From assembly GCF_003018235.1 (NCBI RefSeq), contig NZ_CP027437.1: DNA of 64,000 bases. One strand, given 5' to 3'. The stretch is from Escherichia coli (GTDB taxonomy: Bacteria; Pseudomonadota; Gammaproteobacteria; Enterobacterales; Enterobacteriaceae). Shown one piece after another: positions 14,131-34,926 of the stretch (its first letter is position 1; every line of letters starts with the position of its first letter). The notes under the pieces are model-generated. The model was not told where the DNA came from. It was given only the letters and a program-made list of their open reading frames with translations, and did no database searches. The position numbers were made by a program, and so were the translations under genes.

Positions 14131-14985
14131 TTAACCTGCAATAGCCATTCCTACCGTCATGTGCAGGCCATAAAAGAGCACACGCCCGATCATCTCACCG
14201 CCAAGTATGAGGATTAGCCCCAGAACAAGTCCGGCAACGTGAGGTTCACGGCGACGAATGAGCGGACAAAGCCAGCATCCTAGACCTGTGCATAACAATA
14301 CCACACGCCAGACCTGTAAGGAGGCGTAATCTGGTACCAGTGCGCTGGCTTGTTGTACGGATGAGTGAATAGACGCCAGAGACAAACCTTGCAGCACAAT
14401 CACCCCGGCACAAGCGATCAGCGCCAGAACGCTAATGATGGCAAATGGTGTGGTATTAAATGTAACGCGGGCTGCCCGCAGAATTGCAGCAGCAAGTATT
14501 GGACCGCTCAATAATACTGTCAGGAAGAAAGCCAGCGTAGTGTAACCGTTATGCCAGGTTGGCACAGTGTCGATTTGATACACGCCGGTCATCATCCAGA
14601 CGAAAATGACGCCGAGCGCCATGCTGACAAGTAACCAGAGTTTCCCCAACGCTTGCGGCATTTTACCGATGATCGCCACCAGCCACCATAATCCGCCAAC
14701 GGCAAAAAATATTGAACCGGCAGCAATCTCGTTACTCAGACCAGAAGCTCCGATTCGATTCAGCGAGTTAAACGCCCGCAGTGGCGATCCCAGGTGCATG
14801 ACAGAGGCAATAAACCCGATGCCCATCAACAGCCAGAGGAAAAACATGCCACGAACAATGTGCTGACGGTCTGCGTCATTTTTGGCGGCGAACCAGCCAA
14901 TTCCGCTAACAATCAGCGCGCCTACTACGCATTGACCCAATACGGTAAAGATAACCAGTGGCCATTCATGCCATCCATTTCCCAT
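14131..14985 (-). CDS. ynfH: DMSO-reductase-type membrane anchor subunit YnfH (DmsC paralogue)
   Basis: 284 aa from MGNGWHEWPLVIFTVLGQCVVGALIV; 8-TM anchor; track ORF has an 80-aa unsupported upstream extension overlapping ynfG. Confidence 0.85.
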   Translation of the reverse strand: MGNGWHEWPLVIFTVLGQCVVGALIVSGIGWFAAKNDADRQHIVRGMFFLWLLMGIGFIASVMHLGSPLRAFNSLNRIGASGLSNEIAAGSIFFAVGGLWWLVAIIGKMPQALGKLWLLVSMALGVIFVWMMTGVYQIDTVPTWHNGYTTLAFFLTVLLSGPILAAAILRAARVTFNTTPFAIISVLALIACAGVIVLQGLSLASIHSSVQQASALVPDYASLQVWRVVLLCTGLGCWLCPLIRRREPHVAGLVLGLILILGGEMIGRVLFYGLHMTVGMAIAG

Positions 14986-14986
14986 T

Positions 14987-15604
14987 TTACACTTCCTCCG
15001 GATTAGCCAGATAACCAGTGGTATCGCCGGTCGGGCGGCTGTTGGCGTTAGGTTTGATAACGATATTGGGTTTTGTGAAATGCGCGCGCGGCAGTGGCGC
15101 GACGGCAGCCAGAGTGCCGTGCTTCTGGCGCAGCTCTTCAATTGGACCGAACTCAAGTGCACGCAGCGGGCAGGATTCGACGCATATGGGTTGTTTCCCC
15201 TCGGCGACGCGCGAATAACAACCATCGCACTTCGTCATGTGCCCTTTTTCAGCATTGTACTGTGGCGCGCCGTACGGACAAGCCATGTGGCAGTAGCGGC
15301 AGCCGATACAAACATCTTCATCAACCACCACAAAGCCATCTTCACGCTTATGCATTGCGCCGCTGGGGCAGACTTTTGTACATGCGGGGTCATCGCAATG
15401 GTTACAGGAGATGGAGAGATAATAAGCGAACACGTTCTGGTGCCAGACGCCATTATCTTCCTGCCAGTCGCCGCCAGCATATTCATAAATACGGCGGAAA
15501 CTGACTTCCGGGCCAAGATCTTTAAAATCTTTGCACGCCAGTTCGCAGGTTTTACAGCCAGTACAGCGGCTGGAATCGATAAAAAATCCATATTGTGTGG
15601 TCAT
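14987..15604 (-). CDS. ynfG: DMSO-reductase-type 4Fe-4S subunit YnfG (DmsB paralogue)
   Basis: 205 aa with four ferredoxin-type Cys clusters (CTGCKTCELAC, CNHCDDPACTKVC, CIGCRYCHMACP, CDGCYSRVAEGKQPICVESCP). Confidence 0.9.
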   Translation of the reverse strand: MTTQYGFFIDSSRCTGCKTCELACKDFKDLGPEVSFRRIYEYAGGDWQEDNGVWHQNVFAYYLSISCNHCDDPACTKVCPSGAMHKREDGFVVVDEDVCIGCRYCHMACPYGAPQYNAEKGHMTKCDGCYSRVAEGKQPICVESCPLRALEFGPIEELRQKHGTLAAVAPLPRAHFTKPNIVIKPNANSRPTGDTTGYLANPEEV

Positions 15605-15614
15605 GGGCTACTCC

Positions 15615-18038
15615 TTAAACCTTTTCGATCTGGACAAGATTGCTGTGCGACGGGTTTCCCTTTGCCAGCGGTGAAGGGCGGTGAGAGGTCAGAATATTGA
15701 TACTGCCGCCGTGATCGACCCGGTCACCAAACATATCCGCTTTAAGCCACGCACCTTGCCCGATGGCGGTAACGCCAGGCAGAATACGCGGAGTCACTTT
15801 TGCGGCAATCAGCATTTCTCCATTATTGTTAAATACCCGCACGGTATCGCCATGACGGATACCGCGTGCCTGAGCATCAATAGGGTTTATCCACACCTCT
15901 TGTGGGCAGGCCTGCTGTAACACATCAATATTGCCGTAGCTGGAGTGGGTACGCGCTTTGTAGTGGAAGCCCGTTAGCTGCAGTGGATAGGTTTTCCGCA
16001 GGGGATCGTCCCAGCCATCAAAACCTGGGGTATACGCAGGAAGGGGATGAATAATTTCATCTTTTTTCAATTCCCAGGTATCCGCAATCGTCGCCAGTCG
16101 TTCAGAATAAATTTCGATTTTCCCCGAAGGTGTTTTCAACGGGTTTGCCTGTGGATCTTCACGGAATGCGCGGAAAGCGACGTAGTGTTCTTCCGGGCAT
16201 TTTTTCTTAAAGATCCCGGTCGTTTTCATCTCCTCGTAGTCGGGCATCTCAGGGTTACGTTCCTTCGTTTTCGCATGGAGATATTTGATCCATTCGTGCT
16301 GACTGCGGCCTTCAGTAAAGGTTTGATAAACGTCTGGTCCTAAGCGTTTGGCGACTTCACTCAGCATCCAGTAGATGGGTTTGCGTTCAAATTTTGCTGA
16401 GGTTGCGGGTTGGGCGAGGATCACATAGCCCATATTCCCGGCAGATTCGTGAGAGATAAGGTCTTCTTGCTCTGTTGGCATCAGGTCGGGCAACAGGATA
16501 TCGCAATACTTAGCCGAGGCAGTCATGAAGTGGTCAATGCCAACAATCATCTCGCACTTGCTGTCATCCTGAAGCACCTCATGGGTGTGATTGATGTCGC
16601 CATGTTGATTGATCAATGTGTTACTGGCGTAGCACCATAAAAACTTGATGGGGACATCCAGTTTTTCTTTTCCACGAACACCATCACGGGTCGCGGTCAT
16701 TTCCGTACCGTGGTCGATGGCATCTGTCCATGTAAAGACGGAAATCTGCGTTTTAACAGGATTCTCAAGCATCGGGAACCATTCTACCCCCAGATCCCAG
16801 CTACCTTCGCGTACACCTGAGTTGCCGCCGTTTATGCCGACGTTACCGGTGAGAACGGAAAGCATGGCAATAGCGCGGGACGTTTGTTCGCCGTTGGAGT
16901 GTCGTTGTGGCCCCCAACCCTGACAAATATAAGCAGGTTTTGCTGAACCGATCTCTCGTGCCAACTGGATAATTTTTTCTGCCGGGATGCTGGTGATTTT
17001 TGCTGCCCATTCCGGCGTTTTAGCTATGCCGTCAGGCCCTTCGCCCAGAATATAGGCTTTATAATGCGCGTTACGTGGTGCGTTGGCGGGCAGCGTTTTT
17101 TCATCGTAACCAACACAATATTTGTCGAGAAATGGCTGATCGACCATGTTTTCAGTAATCAGTACCCAGGCAATCGCACAGGCCAGTGCGCCATCGGTGC
17201 CTGGGCGAATTGGCAGCCATTCATCTTCACGCCCGGCAGCAGTGTCGTTATAACGTGGATCGATGACGATCATGCGTGCGTTTGAACGTTCTCGGGCTTG
17301 CTCGACGTAGTAAGTGACACCACCGCCGCTCATCCGGGTTTCTGCCGGGTTATTTCCGAACATAACGACCAGTTTCGTATTGGCTATATCATCCGGGCTG
17401 TTGCCATCATTGGCACCGAACATATAACTCATTGCGGCACTGATTTGAGCGGTACTGTAGCTGCCATAGCGACTGAGAAAACCACCGCAAGAGTTCATCA
17501 GACGGTACGGGACGTTCGAGTTGGTGATGTTTCCGCCATCTACGCCTGTTCCGTACAGGACATGTACAGCCTCATTGCCGTATTCTTTCAGGATCCGCCG
17601 AAGATTATCACTGATGGTATCCAGGGCTTCATCCCAACTTATCCGTTCAAATTTACCTTCACCGCGCTTGCCGACGCGCTTCATGGGATATTTCAACCTA
17701 TCAGGATGATTCATCCGTCGGCGGATAGAGCGCCCGCGTAAACACGCCCGAACCTGATGATTACCGTAGACGTCGTCACCTGTCGTATCAGACTCCACCC
17801 AGTACACGGTGTCATCTTTCACATGCAAACGTAACAGACAGCGGCTCCCGCAGTTAACGGTGCAGGAACTCCAGACCGCTTTCTCTTCTACCGGTGCCTC
17901 TGCCGCTCGGACCATTTGGGAAAATGGCAGAGTGAAAGCACTGCTTGCCAGCGCAAGACTGCCAAGTGCGGAGGTTTTCATCAGACTTCTACGGCTGATT
18001 TCAGCCTTCATGAGCGCCTCTGTGGTATGGATTTTCAT
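15615..18038 (-). CDS. ynfF: Molybdopterin oxidoreductase catalytic subunit YnfF (DmsA paralogue, selenate/DMSO reductase family)
   Basis: 807 aa from MKIHTTEALMKAEISRRSLMK (twin-arginine signal), N-terminal Cys cluster CTVNCGSRC, molybdopterin-binding domains. Confidence 0.9.
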   Translation of the reverse strand: MKIHTTEALMKAEISRRSLMKTSALGSLALASSAFTLPFSQMVRAAEAPVEEKAVWSSCTVNCGSRCLLRLHVKDDTVYWVESDTTGDDVYGNHQVRACLRGRSIRRRMNHPDRLKYPMKRVGKRGEGKFERISWDEALDTISDNLRRILKEYGNEAVHVLYGTGVDGGNITNSNVPYRLMNSCGGFLSRYGSYSTAQISAAMSYMFGANDGNSPDDIANTKLVVMFGNNPAETRMSGGGVTYYVEQARERSNARMIVIDPRYNDTAAGREDEWLPIRPGTDGALACAIAWVLITENMVDQPFLDKYCVGYDEKTLPANAPRNAHYKAYILGEGPDGIAKTPEWAAKITSIPAEKIIQLAREIGSAKPAYICQGWGPQRHSNGEQTSRAIAMLSVLTGNVGINGGNSGVREGSWDLGVEWFPMLENPVKTQISVFTWTDAIDHGTEMTATRDGVRGKEKLDVPIKFLWCYASNTLINQHGDINHTHEVLQDDSKCEMIVGIDHFMTASAKYCDILLPDLMPTEQEDLISHESAGNMGYVILAQPATSAKFERKPIYWMLSEVAKRLGPDVYQTFTEGRSQHEWIKYLHAKTKERNPEMPDYEEMKTTGIFKKKCPEEHYVAFRAFREDPQANPLKTPSGKIEIYSERLATIADTWELKKDEIIHPLPAYTPGFDGWDDPLRKTYPLQLTGFHYKARTHSSYGNIDVLQQACPQEVWINPIDAQARGIRHGDTVRVFNNNGEMLIAAKVTPRILPGVTAIGQGAWLKADMFGDRVDHGGSINILTSHRPSPLAKGNPSHSNLVQIEKV

Positions 18039-18098
18039 CATTACTCACTTATTGCTTTTCAAACAAAATGTCATGTCAGAATTTATGGTTGTAGTGGG

Positions 18099-20524
18099 TT
18101 ATATTTTTTCGATCTCGACCAGATTAGTGTGCTGCGGGTTTCCCTTCGCCAGTGGTGAAGGGCGCAGAGTGGTTAGCGTATTCACACAGCCGCCATGGTC
18201 GATTTTATCGCCAGACATATTGGCCTCGTGCCAGGCTCCCTGGCCCATAGCGCTAACCCCAGGGAGAATGCGTGGTGTCACTTTGGCTGGTAGCCGAACT
18301 TCGCCACGATGGTTATACACCCGCACCATATCGCCGTTGGCAATCCCACGTTTCTGTGCGTCTATAGGGTTGATCCACACCTCCTGACGGCAGGCAGCCT
18401 TCAGGACATCAATGTTGCCGTAGGTCGAGTGAGTACGGGATTTGTAATGGAAACCGAACAGTTGCAGTGGAAAGGTACTACGTTCAGGGGAGTCCCAGCC
18501 TTCAAAGGTTGAGGCATAAACCGGCAGTGGGCTTATCACTTCATCTTTTTCCAGTTCCCAGGTACGGGCAATTTCCGCCAGCTTGCTGGAATAAATTTCA
18601 ATCTTACCGGAAGGCGTTTTAAGTGGATTTGCCTCGGGGTCGTCACGAAATGCTTTGTAGGCGACAAAATGACCATTGGGATCTTTACGCTTATAGATAC
18701 CCATTTTTTTCAGTTCGTCGTAAGACGGTAACGCCGGATCTTTGGCAAGCATTTTGGCGTACAGATGTTGTAACCATTGTTCCTGCGTGCGACCTTCTGT
18801 GAACTTTTGATAGACGTCAGGTCCAAGACGTTTCGCGACCTCACTCAGGATCCAGTAAATCGGTTTGCGTTCGAATTTTTCGCTGGTGACTGGCTGAAGG
18901 AAAATGAGATATCCCATGTTACCGGCGTAGTCGTTAGGAATAATATCTTCCTGCTCAACGGTCATCAGGTCTGGCAGCAGAATGTCGGCATATTTTGCCG
19001 ATGAGGTCATAAAGTTTTCGATGACCACAATCATTTCGCATTTCGATTCGTCCTGCAGAATTTCATGCGTTTTGTTGATGTCAGAATGCTGATTAACGAG
19101 GGTATTTCCCGCATAGTTCCAGATGAACTTAATGGGCACATCCAGTTTATCTTTGCCCCGGACACCGTCGCGGATTGCCGTCATTTGCGGGCCATGATCG
19201 ATAGCATCTGTCCAGCTGAAGCAGGAGATTGACGTTTTGACCGGATTATCCAGCACCGGTAGGCGTTCTATGGTAATGGTATAGGTCGATTCACGCGCGC
19301 CACTATTCCCGCCGCTGATGCCGACATTGCCCGTCAGAATAGGCAACATCGCAATAGCACGTGCAGTCAGCTCGCCGTTTGCCTGGCGTTGCGGTCCCCA
19401 GCCCTGGCAGATATAAGCGGGTTTTGCTGTGCCAATTTCACGCGCCAGTTTGATGATACGGTCCACCGGGATACCGGTAATTTGCGAAGCCCACTGCGGC
19501 GTTTTCGCTGTTTTATCGTCACCTTCACCAAGAATATAGGCTTTATAGTGACCATTTTTTGGTGCATCTGCGGGTAAGGTTTTTTCGTCATAGCCGACGC
19601 AGTATTTATCGAGAAAAGGTTGATCAACGAGATTTTCGTTAATCAATACCCAGGCAATACCCGCAACCAGCGCGGCATCGGTGCCCGGGCGAATAGGTTG
19701 CCATTCGTCTTCACGACCAGCAGCTGTATCGGTATATCGCGGATCGATAACAATCATTTTGCGTTCGATTTCTCGCGCGCTTTTTCAAGAAGATAAGTGA
19801 TGCCACCGCCGCTCATGCGGGTTTCTGCCGGGTTGTTACCAAACATCACGACCAGCTTGCTGTTTTCAATATCCGTGGTGCTGTTGCCATCATTACTGCC
19901 GTAGGTGTAGGGCATGGCACAGGAAATTTGCGCGGTGCTGTAGGAGCCATACTGGTTGAGTGAACCGCCGTAGCAGTTCATCAGGCGTTTGACCGCCGAG
20001 GCGGATGGCGAAGAGCGGGTCATATTGCCGCCAACGATCCCTGAAGAGTACTGAATATATACAGCCTCATTGCCATATTGTTCGACGGTTTTTTTCAGGC
20101 TACTGGCGATAGTATCCAGGGCTTCATCCCAGCTAATCCGTTCGAATTTGCCTTCGCCGCGTTTGCCCACGCGTTTCATTGGGTAATTCAAGCGATCGGG
20201 ATGATTAATACGCCGACGGATGGAGCGACCGCGCAAACAGGCACGTACTTGATGATTGCCATACTCGTCGTTGCCGGTGTTGTCAGTTTCCACCCAGGTC
20301 ACTTCATTATCTTTAACATGCAGACGAAGTGCACAGCGGCTACCACAGTTGACGGAACAGGCACCACAGAGCACTTTCTCGCTGGCCTGTTGTACCGCTG
20401 CCGCTGCACTGCGCAGGGTGAACGGTAAAGAAAAACCGCCTGCAGCCAGCGCCAGAGAACCTATCGCGGTAGATTTAACGAGTGTTCTGCGGCTGATGCC
20501 CACCATTTGTTCATTTTTGGACAT
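18099..20524 (-). pseudogene. ynfE: ynfE (DmsA-type catalytic subunit) interrupted by a 1-bp frameshift in a homopolymer run
   Basis: Two adjacent ORFs in different frames (19754..20524, 256 aa, twin-arginine N-terminus MSKNEQMVGISRRTLVK; 18099..19757, 552 aa, begins MIVIDPRY) together align collinearly with intact YnfF; junction reads gca aaa tga ttg on the coding strand, where the paralogue has an in-frame ...NAR-MIVIDPRY. Confidence 0.75.
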
Positions 20525-20623
20525 AACTCACTCCCTGTTCTTTATCGTTATATAAAAGTTTATATATTGAATATTTAGCGCGCTAACAATAGAGGGAGTC
20601 TACCTATTTTGGGTTAAGAATTA

Positions 20624-20637
20624 TTAATCCATATCAA
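20624..20637. promoter_or_regulatory. Candidate FNR-type site upstream of ynfE operon
   Basis: TTAAT-CCAT-ATCAA, one mismatch from TTGAT-N4-ATCAA, centred ~106 bp upstream of ynfE start codon; anaerobic-respiration operon context. Confidence 0.3.
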
Positions 20638-20722
20638 TAGAAGGGTATGAGTAATAAGGTGGGATTATGTTGTATGTTCAAATCGCCGGATGTGTCGTAT
20701 CCGGCGTGCAGTCGATAATGTG

Positions 20723-30636: not shown

Positions 30637-32872
<2,236 letters not shown>

Positions 32873-32934: not shown

Positions 32935-33621
32935 ATGAACCTCATAAACACATTTATGACTGTTGCTGATTTCAAACGCCCCAAATTGGAGCTCCCAAAC
33001 GGGGCAAAAAAACTATTACTGCACTCTTGCTGTGCTCCATGTTCCGGTGAAGTGATGGAGGCGCTTCAGGCCTCGGGAATCGACTACACCATCTTTTTCT
33101 ACAACCCGAACATTCATCCTCAGAAAGAGTATTTAATTCGTAAGGATGAGAATATTCGCTTTGCTAAACAACACGGCGTGCCATTTATTGATGCTGATTA
33201 CGACACAGACAACTGGTTTGAGCGAGCCAAAGGAATGGAATGGGAGCCTGAACGAGGGATCCGTTGTACCATGTGTTTTGACATGCGTTTTGAGCGGACT
33301 GCGCTGTATGCCGCTGAAAATGGTTTCAGTGTGATCAGTAGCTCACTGGGCATTTCACGCTGGAAAAATATGCAGCAGGTTAACGACTGTGGACGGCGAG
33401 CCGTCGCGTATTATCCGGGCATGGTGTACTGGGATTATAACTGGCGAAAGCAGGGCGGCTCTTCCCGCATGATTGAAATCAGCAAGCGCGAACAATTCTA
33501 TCAGCAGGAATATTGTGGCTGCGTGTATTCACTGCGCGATACCAATCTACACCGCAAATCTCAGGGACGCCCTCTAATCAAAATTGGTCAACTCCACTAC
33601 GGTAAAGAAGGGCAGGAATGA
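32935..33621 (+). CDS. DUF208 / QueH-like protein (putative epoxyqueuosine reductase)
   Basis: Motif [16 protein letters not shown] near N-terminus plus conserved Cys at CTMC and YCGCVYS; start uncertain (ATG 32935 or 32956, no clear SD; track ORF from 32842). Confidence 0.6.
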
Positions 33622-33702
33622 TTTTATATTATGCCAACAACGGAGCGTAGCAGTGTTTCTATATATAGTACGCCTACCTTAATTTTCAAATAATCATGAT
33701 TA

Positions 33703-33739
33703 ATGAGCAGGTCATCAGTGCAAGCAATGACCTGCTCAT
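33703..33739. repeat. Perfect 13-bp inverted repeat (hairpin or operator-like palindrome) downstream of queH-like gene
   Basis: atgagcaggtcat-cagtgcaagca-atgacctgctcat; followed by cttgttg, weak U-tract. Confidence 0.4.
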
Positions 33740-34236
33740 CTTGTTGAAATTAGAGGAAATCTTGAAGCCATGATATGGCTTAAAATAACGTTTGATTATT
33801 TTACCTGCTGTTTGTCCCTGGTTTAAAGTCGGTTGTCTGATTTGATTACGCGCAACTGACGCTTACGTATTGAAGTAACGAGCACGAAGACACATATTTA
33901 TCAGTGCCTGTATACGTCAAGAGCAGGAGATTTATGTGCTGGTTCTCAAATGCACGCTGGCTATTGTGGCTGTAATGGCAATTTATTGTCTTGTTATTGT
34001 TCTTATGGATCACCTTACTGATTGATTTCATATTGGCGAGGTAACGGTAGTTAAGTAGAATGGCTGCGGGTGCTTGAGGCTATCTGCCTCGGGCATGAAC
34101 ACCAACGGCAGATAGAGAAAAGCCCCAGTTAACATTACGCGTCCTGCAAGACGCTTAACATTAATCTGAGGCCAATTTCATGCTAGACACATGTAGGTTA
34201 GCCTCTTACGTGCCGAAAGGCAAGGAGAAGCAGGCT

Positions 34237-34392
34237 ATGAAGCAGCAAAAGGCGATGTTAATCGCCCTGATCGTCATTTGTTTAACCGTCATAGTGACGG
34301 CACTGGTAACGAGGAAAGACCTCTGCGAGGTACGAATCCGAACCGGCCAGACGGAGGTCGCTGTCTTCACAGCTTACGAACCTGAGGAGTAA
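34237..34392 (+). CDS. hokD: Hok-family type I toxin HokD (RelF)
   Basis: 51 aa MKQQKAMLIALIVICLTVIVTALVTRKDLCEVRIRTGQTEVAVFTAYEPEE; RBS AAGGAGAAG; overlapping upstream mok-like frame from 34180. Confidence 0.85.
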   Translation: MKQQKAMLIALIVICLTVIVTALVTRKDLCEVRIRTGQTEVAVFTAYEPEE

Positions 34393-34459
34393 GAGACCCG
34401 GCGAGGGAGAAATCCCTCGCCACCTCTGATGTGGCAGGCATCCTCAACGCACCCGCACT

Positions 34460-34486
34460 TAACCCGCTTCGGCGGGTTTTTGTTTT
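34460..34486 (+). terminator. Rho-independent terminator after hokD
   Basis: aacccgc-ttcg-gcgggtt followed by tttgttttt. Confidence 0.6.
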
Positions 34487-34608
34487 TATTTTCAACGCGT
34501 TTGAAGTTCTGGACGGTGCCGGAATAGAATCAAAAATACTTAAGTAGCGCGCAGGGATAAGAGGGATGGTCCCTTAAAGGGGAGAGCTAATTATCCGGAA
34601 GGATTCTG

Positions 34609-34860
34609 ATGATGAACATCGAAGAACTGCGTAAAATTTTTTGTGAAGATGGCCTCTATGCTGTGTGCGTTGAAAATGGAAATCTTGTTAGTCATTACCG
34701 CATTATGTGTTTGCGAAAGAATGGGGCTGCGTTAATTAATTTTGTGGATGGTCGAGTGACAGACGGATTTATCTTGCGCGAAGGTGAGTTTGTCACTTCA
34801 TTACAGGCACTGAAAGAGATCGGAATAAAAGCAGGCTTTTCAGCTTTTGCAGAAGAATAA
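34609..34860 (+). CDS. rem: Small prophage protein, Rem-like by position
   Basis: 83-aa ORF between hokD and ydfU, the Qin position of rem (same length); sequence not independently recognised. Confidence 0.4.
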   Translation: MMNIEELRKIFCEDGLYAVCVENGNLVSHYRIMCLRKNGAALINFVDGRVTDGFILREGEFVTSLQALKEIGIKAGFSAFAEE

Positions 34861-34926
34861 ACTCATCTACAATCTTGCGCGGGGCTGAACTCCCGCTGAG
34901 TAACACCGTGCCACCGGAGAAAACCG

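What the first reader, a model, noticed from the sequence alone, without database searches (positions are those of the whole stretch)
34180..34490. hokD toxin present without the relBE module it is fused to in K-12
The Hok-family toxin (51 aa), an overlapping mok-like frame and a strong 3' terminator are present, but no RelB/RelE-like ORFs are detectable upstream. In K-12, hokD is the third gene of relBEF. Here it appears as a stand-alone hok/mok unit whose sok-type antisense control is unverified.
Basis: partly seen in the sequence, partly recalled or inferred. Interest (0 to 1): 0.4.

Follow-up and report, generated by a model that had tools for sequence, protein, structure and literature searches.

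The report
Intact hokD/sok toxin–antitoxin locus
This is an ordinary, complete hok/mok/sok toxin–antisense-RNA module in a Qin-like E. coli prophage; K-12 is the odd one, because a transposon carrying relBE landed at the start of its hokD gene.

Summary
hokD (51 aa, identical to K-12 HokD) lies at 34237-34392, followed by a terminator, and no relB or relE exists anywhere in the 64 kb. Upstream, at 34033-34236, lie a hok promoter, the full hok mRNA leader (Rfam RF01794, 115 bits), a mok start that is in frame with hok as in K-12 mokC, and an antisense Sok gene (34188→34112) with its own promoter. The 5' end pairs with the 3' end, as in plasmid R1 hok. So the "unverified" Sok control is present at sequence level.

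This arrangement is the common state: 4033 of 5426 complete E. coli genomes and 74 phage records carry it. The relE–hokD junction occurs in 1165 genomes.

K-12's relBE–hokD is derived. A 3.27-kb IS1202-family (ISEsa1-type) element carrying relBE, ydfV and flxA is inserted at the hok ribosome-binding site, with a 15-bp duplication (GGAGAAGCAGGCTAT, single-copy here at 34224-34238). Elements with the same left end sit at the equivalent site of at least 12 different hok-family loci, which suggests hok-specific targeting. That relBE integrated into hokD is published; the vehicle and its targeting were not found in the papers searched.

The window feature itself is already known and of low interest.

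The parts
34033..34061 (+). hok mRNA promoter: -35 TTGGCG, 17-nt spacer, -10 TAGAAT
   Evidence: Promoter scan, 9/12 matches. The -10 aligns with the hokC promoter. The predicted +1, about 7 nt downstream, coincides with the start of the Rfam model at 34068.
34068..34487 (+). Full-length hok (mok-hok) mRNA, about 420 nt
   Evidence: MFE -171.6 kcal/mol, z=-8.2, with the 5' end paired to the 3' end. RNAalifold on 11 hokD-type loci gives the same closing helix.
34068..34080 (+). tac element (GGGTGCTTGAGGC) at the mRNA 5' end
   Evidence: Pairs with 34442..34454 in the MFE and consensus folds. Invariant in 11 loci. It forms the first helix of the Rfam RF01794 alignment.
34068..34242 (+). hok mRNA leader matched by Rfam RF01794 'sok'. 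The model is on the sense strand and covers the tac stem, the Sok-target hairpin and the mok-SD/dcb stem.
   Evidence: 115.3 bits against a gathering score of 59, E=1.6e-25, model positions 1-157 of 157.
34112..34188 (-). Predicted SokD antisense RNA (about 77 nt): a single-stranded 5' tail complementary to the mok SD and start, then a long terminator hairpin and the tail CUUUUCUCUAU
   Evidence: Both ends are collinear with the annotated K-12 sokC (GUUCAGCAU...GGGGCUUUUCUCUAU). Fold -32.8 kcal/mol, z=-6.1.
34195..34223 (-). Predicted Sok promoter: -35 TTGCCT, 17-nt spacer, -10 TAACCT, +1 G at 34188
   Evidence: Placed by position relative to the sokC 5' end. Only 7/12 consensus matches, so the scan did not list it. 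K-12 hokD has lost this whole region.
34168..34171 (+). mok Shine-Dalgarno sequence GAGG, 8 nt before the mok ATG
   Evidence: Read directly from the sequence. Paired with the downstream box AGCCUC (34200-34205) in the Rfam structure.
34180..34392 (+). mokD ORF, 70 aa, in frame with hokD and sharing its stop codon
   Evidence: ORF list. Same layout as K-12 mokC/hokC. The ATG is conserved in 10 of 11 loci.
34237..34392 (+). hokD toxin CDS, 51 aa; SD AAGGAG at 34222-34227
   Evidence: 100% identical to K-12 HokD. PF01848 at 81.6 bits. PHROG 251. PGAP names it hokD in identical genomes.
34224..34238 (+). GGAGAAGCAGGCTAT: the unoccupied 15-bp target that is duplicated around the relBE-carrying IS1202-family element in K-12-type strains
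   Evidence: Single copy in the window. It flanks the 3274-bp insert on both sides in strain EC3 and in metagenomic contigs.
34442..34454 (+). fbi element (CCTCAACGCACCC), complementary to tac
   Evidence: All 12 tac-fbi pairs are kept in at least 10 of 11 loci.
34461..34487 (+). Intrinsic terminator of the hok mRNA
   Evidence: Stem of 7 pairs (5 G-C), loop of 4, then TTTGTTTTTA.

Best explanation
Window 34033-34487 is a complete type I toxin-antitoxin module, hokD/mokD/sokD. It lies in the early-right (nin-like) region of a Qin-like lambdoid prophage, between queH and rem.

**Proposed mechanism, inferred from the R1 hok/sok paradigm.**
1. A sigma-70 promoter makes a stable mRNA of about 420 nt.
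2. The 5' tac element of that mRNA pairs with the 3' fbi element. This keeps the mRNA closed, untranslated and not bound by Sok.
3. Slow 3' trimming removes fbi. The leader then refolds and exposes the mok Shine-Dalgarno sequence and start codon.
4. Translation that starts at mok (here in frame with hok) opens the hok start region, so toxin is made.
5. The short-lived antisense SokD RNA, transcribed from the opposite strand across the mok start region, pairs with that region. This blocks mok and hok translation and triggers duplex cleavage.
6. If the locus is lost or transcription stops, Sok decays first and Hok kills the cell by damaging the inner membrane.

**Evolutionary status.** The locus is the uninterrupted, ancestral allele. 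K-12's relBE-hokD operon arose when an IS1202-family element carrying relBE inserted at 34224-34238.

**Shown versus inferred.** Shown here: every sequence element, its conservation, the predicted folds and the population distribution. Inferred: transcription, RNA processing, killing and the biological role.
For: **The parts are present.**
- HokD is identical to the K-12 protein and matches PF01848.
- The full-length Rfam RF01794 match covers the leader.
- The hok promoter lies at the right distance from the mRNA start.
- The tac-fbi closing helix appears in the MFE fold (z=-8.2) and in the consensus fold of 11 loci, which also shows compensatory changes in other stems.
- The SokD sequence is collinear with annotated sokC and folds as a tail plus a terminator hairpin.
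- The in-frame mok matches the mokC precedent.

**The arrangement is common.**
- The same leader plus hokD occurs in 4033 of 5426 complete E. coli genomes.
- It occurs in 74 phage records, annotated Hok, MokW or 'phage maintenance protein'.

**Ancestral status.**
- K-12 identity begins only about 14-15 nt before the ATG.
- Strain EC3 keeps both flanks around a 3274-bp insert with a 15-bp direct repeat and 22/30 terminal inverted repeats ending TGT...ACA.
- The transposase scores 456 bits against the NCBIfam ISNCY model.

**Literature.**
- The R1 mechanism is summarised in PMC9841398.
- Intact hokD loci in non-K-12 strains are reported in PMC7232551.
- The statement that relBE integration truncated an ancestral hokD of about 70 codons is in PMC6379469.
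Against: - No expression data are available.
- The Sok promoter is weak by consensus (7/12) and the scan did not report it.
- The MFE fold of a 3'-trimmed mRNA did not reproduce the tac/ucb stem.
- Structurally intact chromosomal hokA, hokB and hokC loci were reported not to mediate post-segregational killing and not to respond to rifampicin (Pedersen & Gerdes 1999, as summarised in bioRxiv 10.1101/2025.08.07.668861).
- Because mok is in frame, ribosomes starting at mok would make a 70-aa extended Hok. The coupling details may therefore differ from R1.
Confidence: 0.85

Rival explanations
1. The locus is structurally complete but physiologically silent. It would be a conserved relic that neither kills nor stabilises the prophage under normal conditions. 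Any Hok activity would additionally depend on TadA A-to-I editing of Tyr47.
For: - Chromosomal hokA, hokB and hokC loci failed to mediate post-segregational killing (summary).
- hokD was listed among the hok genes reported to be inactive in E. coli (PMC5630033).
- The editable TACG motif lies at the Tyr47 codon, 34375.
- The Sok and hok promoters are only moderate consensus matches.
Against: - All regulatory elements are strongly conserved across prophages, phages and plasmids. tac and fbi are invariant in 11 loci and stems show compensatory changes.
- The locus is enriched in mobile elements.
- Overexpressed HokD is toxic (bioRxiv).
- The K-12 inactivity data concern the truncated K-12 hokD allele, not this one.
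Confidence: 0.35
2. The window once carried the relBE element and lost it by precise excision, so the stand-alone state is secondary.
For: The element is mobile, and the window's prophage sits at the same chromosomal site as K-12 Qin (rspB side). Downstream sequence is nearly identical to K-12.
Against: - The window has a single, clean copy of the 15-mer and no trace of either inverted repeat.
- The uninterrupted form is about 3.5 times as frequent and spans 88-100% identity across many unrelated prophage, phage and plasmid contexts.
- Precise excision of DDE-type insertion sequences is rare (general knowledge).
Confidence: 0.04
3. hokD here is expressed mainly by read-through from upstream (queH or the 29-aa ORF at 33936) as part of a longer transcript. 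In that case the hok/sok-type control would be secondary.
For: No terminator was detected on the + strand between the hairpin after queH (about 33703-33745) and the hok terminator. The small ORF ends 8 nt before the hok -35 box.
Against: - hokD loci with entirely different upstream DNA keep the same promoter -10 box and +1 position.
- A 5' extension would prevent the conserved tac-fbi pairing, which needs the native 5' end.
Confidence: 0.08

Closest known systems
hokC/mokC/sokC (gef) locus of E. coli K-12
   Same: - The leader is nearly collinear, with the same tac sequence and the same promoter position.
- mok is in frame with hok: MokC is MLNTCRV...KRAMKQHKAM and the window gives MLDTCRL...KQAMKQQKAM.
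- The 5' and 3' ends of Sok match annotated sokC.
   Different: - The window's leader has an extra 18 nt that lengthens the Sok terminator hairpin.
- K-12 hokC has IS186 immediately downstream; the window locus is not interrupted.
- The window locus is in a prophage, not in the core chromosome.
hok/mok/sok of plasmid R1 (parB)
   Same: The same set of elements is present: tac, fbi, the mok SD with its downstream box, an antisense Sok across the mok start, and a PF01848 toxin (mechanism in PMC9841398).
   Different: - In R1, mok is out of frame with hok (58 nt rather than 57 nt between the two ATGs, from my recollection of the R1 sequence). That spacing is seen here in the EC7, pXD35003 and PK-F-10132 variants.
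- The Hok sequences are only distantly similar.
- The R1 function (plasmid stabilisation) is experimentally shown. This locus is untested.
relB-relE-hokD (relBEF) of K-12 Qin prophage
   Same: The hokD CDS encodes the same protein. The 3' UTR, fbi, terminator and downstream rem-ydfU-ydfT are nearly identical.
   Different: - K-12 lacks the hok promoter, tac, mok and Sok.
- There, hokD follows relE by 71 nt, because an IS1202-family element carrying relBE was inserted at the hok SD.
- K-12 has also lost the left 1.2 kb of that element and the hok leader.
IS1202 family insertion sequences (ISNCY; ISEsa1 / ISTde1 groups)
   Same: The relBE-bearing element has the family's features.
- A transposase of 437-446 aa (NCBIfam ISNCY_2, 456 bits; PGAP 'IS1202-like ISEsa1 family').
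- Ends that read TGT...ACA.
- Imperfect inverted repeats of about 26-30 bp and a 15-16 bp duplication.
- These match the family descriptions (10.1101/2022.12.17.520857; PMC10132070).
   Different: - It is not present in this window; only its empty target is.
- It carries four passenger genes (flxA, ydfV, relB, relE).
- Both papers list ISEsa1-type or long-duplication members as having no known target. Here 39 of 44 left flanks carry hok-family target sequence: 36 hok leaders and 3 tandem arrays.

Membership tests
[quoted passage not shown] | Small membrane toxin of the Hok/Gef family (PF01848) | tested here: met
   PF01848 at 81.6 bits against a cutoff of 22. 100% identical to K-12 HokD. PHROG 251.
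[quoted passage not shown] | mok leader ORF with its own SD, starting upstream of hok and running through the hok start | tested here: met
   GAGG at 34168, ATG at 34180, 70-aa ORF. In-frame variant as in K-12 mokC. The ATG is conserved in 10 of 11 loci.
[quoted passage not shown] | cis-encoded antisense Sok RNA with its own promoter, complementary to the mok translation-initiation region and ending in a terminator hairpin | tested here: met
   Met at sequence level only. The ends are collinear with annotated sokC. Hairpin plus U-rich tail, z=-6.1. Promoter TTGCCT-17-TAACCT. Transcription was not tested.
[quoted passage not shown] | Long-range 5'-3' pairing (tac-fbi) that closes the full-length mRNA | tested here: met
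   A 12-pair helix between 34068-34079 and 34442-34454 in the MFE fold and in the consensus fold of 11 loci. The pairs are invariant, so they are conserved but give no covariation signal.
[quoted passage not shown] | Leader structure of the processed mRNA (tac/ucb stem, Sok-target hairpin, mok-SD/dcb stem) | tested here: met
   Rfam RF01794 covariance model, 115.3 bits against 59, full length. The MFE fold of a trimmed RNA did not reproduce the tac/ucb stem.
[quoted passage not shown] | 3' processing, RNase III cleavage of the duplex, and killing on loss of the locus | not testable with these tools
   Requires Northern blots, RNA-seq and genetic tests.
relBE type II toxin-antitoxin | RelB antitoxin and RelE toxin ORFs next to hokD | tested here: not met
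   tblastn with K-12 RelB and RelE against the whole window gives best E values of 2.2 and 1.0. No such ORFs lie in 33600-34240.
IS1202-family relBE transporter element | Terminal inverted repeats, transposase, and a duplicated 15-mer flanking an insert | tested here: not met
   The left inverted repeat is absent from the window even with 3 mismatches allowed. The 15-mer is present once. The window is the empty site.

The most novel reading that the evidence does not exclude
The 15 bp at window 34224-34238, the hok Shine-Dalgarno-to-start segment just 3' of the conserved AAGGCAA, may be the preferred target of a group of IS1202-family (ISEsa1-type) transposons that home specifically to hok-family toxin genes.

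- One such element carries relBE and created the classic K-12 'relBEF' operon.
- Insertion disconnects hok from its promoter, from mok and from Sok, and nearly always in one orientation.
- This would be an insertion sequence using a toxin gene's start site on plasmids and prophages as a safe, mobile landing pad.
- It would also place a type II toxin-antitoxin pair inside a type I locus.

The window holds the unoccupied target.
Probability: 0.5. Interest if true: 0.6.

Novelty: already known. Interest (0 to 1): 0.3.

Why it matters
The window's locus is a textbook system, so it changes little. Its main use is as a reminder that K-12's relBE-hokD layout is not the reference state. In most E. coli, hokD has its own promoter, its own mok and its own Sok RNA. 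Statements that "hokD lacks antisense control" or "is inactive" apply to the K-12 allele only.

The comparison also yields a mechanistic origin for the relBEF operon. A transposon carrying relBE inserted at the hok ribosome-binding site and left a 15-bp duplication. The comparison further suggests that related elements target hok genes specifically. If confirmed, this would be a new target specificity for IS1202-family elements. It would also be a route by which toxin-antitoxin systems capture or disarm one another on mobile DNA.

Tried and rejected
- **relBE remnants:** searched the whole window by tblastn for RelB, RelE, YdfV and FlxA. Nothing was found.
- **Sok promoter by consensus scan:** the scan did not list it because it has only 7/12 matches. 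It was placed instead by homology with annotated sokC.
- **3'-trimmed mRNA fold (34068-34440):** the MFE shows a 5' hairpin, not the tac/ucb stem. This is inconclusive; the Rfam structural alignment was used instead.
- **29-aa ORF (33936-34025) as part of the hok module:** rejected, because the same segment occurs without hok in L013 and L014.
- **Literature not available:** the Fozo et al. review (PMC2593563) is not held. Pedersen & Gerdes 1999 and Ramisetty & Santhosh 2016 are not held either, so they are cited only through papers that summarise them.
- **Spread by homologous recombination alone:** considered for the relBE element's presence in several hok loci, but rejected as the main route. 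Each locus carries its own matching duplicated 15-mer on both sides. One recombinant, L040, was seen.
- **Literature on IS1202, ISNCY or ISEsa1 linked to hok or relBE:** nothing relevant was found.

Full report
**1. What is in the window**

The window is E. coli chromosome carrying a Qin-like lambdoid prophage.
- Positions 33600-34900 are 100% identical to several RefSeq genomes. PGAP annotates queH, hokD and rem there.
- The surrounding order is integrase ... dicB ... queH, hokD, rem, ydfU (DUF968), antiterminator Q, csp genes, lysis genes and structural genes. The prophage lies next to rspB, as does K-12 Qin.
- The hokD ORF is at 34237-34392. It encodes a protein identical to K-12 HokD and matches PF01848.
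- A terminator follows at 34461-34478.
- tblastn with K-12 RelB, RelE, YdfV and FlxA finds nothing in the 64 kb.

**2.

Rfam's RF01794 ("sok") model matches 34068-34242 on the + strand over its full length (115 bits against a gathering score of 59, E=1.6e-25). The model covers the sense-strand hok mRNA leader and ends at the hok AUG.
- A promoter (TTGGCG, 17 nt, TAGAAT; 34033-34061) places +1 at about 34068, which is exactly where the model starts.
- The full-length RNA (34068-34487) folds with its first 12 nt (tac, GGGUGCUUGAGG) paired to 34442-34454 (fbi, CCUCAACGCACCC). The MFE is -171.6 kcal/mol and z=-8.2.
- The consensus fold of 11 hokD-type loci from different contexts has the same closing helix. 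It shows compensatory changes in the 3' stem-loop and in the tac hairpin.
- The mok SD (GAGG, 34168) and ATG (34180) are present. The ORF runs in frame into hok, giving 70 aa. This is exactly the layout of annotated mokC/hokC in K-12, and the N-termini are similar.
- Among related loci, both the in-frame (57 nt) and the R1-like out-of-frame (58 nt) spacings occur.

**3. Sok**

K-12 sokC is annotated with its 5' end 8 nt inside mokC.
- By alignment, the equivalent SokD starts at G34188 on the minus strand and ends at about 34112.
- The two RNAs have parallel ends: SokD is GUCUAGCAUGAAAUUGGCCUCAG...CUGGGGCUUUUCUCUAU and SokC is GUUCAGCAUAUAGGAGGCCUCGG...CGGGGCUUUUCUCUAU.
- SokD folds as a free 5' tail plus a long hairpin and a U-rich tail (-32.8 kcal/mol, z=-6.1). 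An 18-nt insert relative to hokC and to the Rfam consensus lengthens this hairpin.
- Upstream on the minus strand lie TTGCCT, a 17-nt spacer and TAACCT (34223-34195). This is a modest promoter and fell below the scan threshold.
- The tail is complementary to the mok SD and start codon, as the R1 mechanism requires (PMC9841398).

All defining sequence features of a hok/mok/sok module are therefore present. Expression and killing are inferred, not shown.

**4. How common it is**

- A 233-nt query spanning the leader and the hokD 5' end is covered at 80% or more in 4033 of 5426 complete E. coli genomes. The median is 2 places per genome and the maximum is 9.
- The K-12 relE-hokD junction is covered in 1165 genomes.
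- The locus sits between different upstream genes (DUF551, a methyltransferase, queH, a phage-plasmid antirepressor) and is usually followed by DUF968 and Q.
- It is present in 74 phage records, including mEp460, HannyBb and Stx phages.
- The literature already notes intact hokD in other strains (PMC7232551), enrichment of hok in prophages (bioRxiv 10.1101/2025.08.07.668861), and truncation of an "ancestral hokD ORF of about 70 codons" in K-12 by integration of relBE (PMC6379469).

The window feature is therefore already known.

**5. Why K-12 differs**

K-12 and the window are identical only from AGGAGAAGCAGGCTATG onwards. Strain EC3 retains both sides.
- The hokD leader (equivalent to window 34048-34238, 98.4% identical) is followed by a 3274-bp insert and then GGAGAAGCAGGCTAT-G...hokD.
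- The insert begins TGTTAAC and ends GTTGACA. Its terminal inverted repeats match at 22 of 30 positions, and it is flanked by a 15-bp direct repeat.
- It encodes a 437-aa transposase (NCBIfam ISNCY_2, 456 bits; PGAP "IS1202-like ISEsa1 family"), flxA, ydfV, relB and relE.
- These properties fit the IS1202 family: TGT/ACA ends, imperfect inverted repeats of 24-26 bp, and a 15-17 bp duplication class.
- K-12 keeps only the part of the element from within the transposase C-terminus (ydfW) rightwards. It has lost the left end of the element and the hok leader.
- The leader-to-left-inverted-repeat junction survives in 678 genomes, which therefore carry an orphan hokD leader and Sok gene.

**6. The element appears to target hok genes**

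- The complete element, 99.8% identical, is on 16 plasmids from Salmonella, Enterobacter and E. coli.
- On an IncI plasmid it sits in the pndA locus (duplication TGGAGGGGCTATGAT). On an IncF plasmid it sits in an R1-type hok locus (GGAGAAGAAGGCCA(T)). In each case the duplication starts just after the conserved AAGGCAA, with relE 71 nt upstream of the hok-family ATG.
- A scan of species-representative genomes for the right end gave 7 hits. Four were in hok sites, one of them in inverted orientation, and three were elsewhere.
- A metagenome scan for the left end gave 45 contigs. Thirty-six left flanks are hok-family leaders of at least 12 different sequences. Three are tandem arrays separated by a hok-type 15-mer. 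Five are unrelated and one has no flank.
- In 14 contigs the matching 14-15-mer recurs after the element. In 13 of these it directly follows the element's right end, 3274-3306 bp downstream in hokD loci and 4239 or 4602 bp downstream in R1-type hok loci. In L031 it recurs at +3060 without the right-end sequence before it.
- One contig (L040) has different 15-mers on its two sides. This indicates recombination between copies.
- Neither IS1202-family paper reports a target for ISEsa1-type or long-duplication members. No held paper links these elements to hok or relBE.

This is the most novel thread, but it concerns other genomes. The window contributes only the empty site at 34224-34238, which is single-copy and has no inverted repeat nearby.

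**7. Verdict**

Sok control is now verified at sequence level. The feature is an ordinary, already-known hokD/mokD/sokD locus. The apparent anomaly lies in K-12, not here. Interest is low for the window itself. It is raised somewhat by the transposon origin of relBEF and by the apparent hok-targeting of ISEsa1-type elements.

Noticed in passing
window 33936-34025 (+), with SD AGGAG at 33925-33929 and a possible promoter TTGAAG-17-CATATT at 33871-33899: A conserved 29-aa hydrophobic ORF with a GTG start (MLVLKCTLAIVAVMAIYCLVIVLMDHLTD) ends 8 nt before the hok -35 box.
- The frame, length, SD and start are kept in 8 variants that differ by synonymous and conservative changes.
- The segment occurs in 1838 of 5426 genomes, mostly unannotated.
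- Databases call it only 'membrane protein' or 'hypothetical protein', and it has no family match.
- It also occurs without hok (L013, L014).

Its function is unknown. It could be a small membrane protein or another small toxin.
   Followed up: partly
L021 1024-4297 (E. coli EC3); L022, L023 (plasmids); L027-L075: An IS1202-family (ISEsa1-type) element carrying flxA, ydfV and relBE is inserted at the SD/start of hokD, pndA and R1-type hok genes, with 15-16 bp duplications. Of 44 metagenomic left flanks, 39 carry hok-family target sequence: 36 hok leaders and 3 tandem arrays. This explains K-12 relBEF and suggests an insertion sequence that targets hok genes.
   Followed up: partly
window 30855-32800: An IS100 (IS21 family, istA/istB) replaces 3.78 kb that is present in the otherwise near-identical prophage of strain FHI_NMBU_03. 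The missing segment holds ydfB, ydfA, cI-like and cro-like repressors, ydaT, a replication gene and DUF977. The window's prophage has therefore lost its immunity and replication region. No complete genome in the collection has this exact junction.
   Followed up: partly
window 34375-34378: The hokD Tyr47 codon TAC sits in a TACG motif, the TadA A-to-I editing site. Editing is reported to recode Tyr to Cys in the hokC, hokD and hokE mRNAs (PMC5630033).
   Followed up: no
window 34172-34194 (alignment A5, columns 107-127): The alignment of hokD-type loci is 94% identical overall. The block around the mok start codon, which is also the 5' recognition tail of Sok, is hypervariable, with at least 7 different versions. 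This could reflect divergence of Sok/hok pairing specificity among the several co-resident copies (up to 9 per genome).
   Followed up: no
L021 833-1023 (EC3) and 678 E. coli genomes: An orphan hokD promoter, leader and Sok gene remain upstream of the relBE element, now reading into the transposase gene. In EC3 the Sok -35 box carries a change (GGCAA to GGCAC on the + strand) and mok would stop at the TAA inside the left inverted repeat.
   Followed up: no
L015 (strain PK-F-10132), alignment A5 column about 116: This hokD locus has ATA in place of the mok ATG, and changes in the hok SD region. It may be a naturally inactivated copy.
   Followed up: no
window 30640-30691 (-), 39490-39913 (+), 42390-42775 (+): Rfam finds DicF sRNA and two cspA-type thermoregulator leaders (cspB/cspF-like prophage cold-shock genes), as expected for a Qin-type prophage.
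   Followed up: no
window 14318-20683: This roughly 6.4-kb stretch has no counterpart in the FHI_NMBU_03 locus, where the dmsC/ynfD region appears shortened. It was not examined.
   Followed up: no
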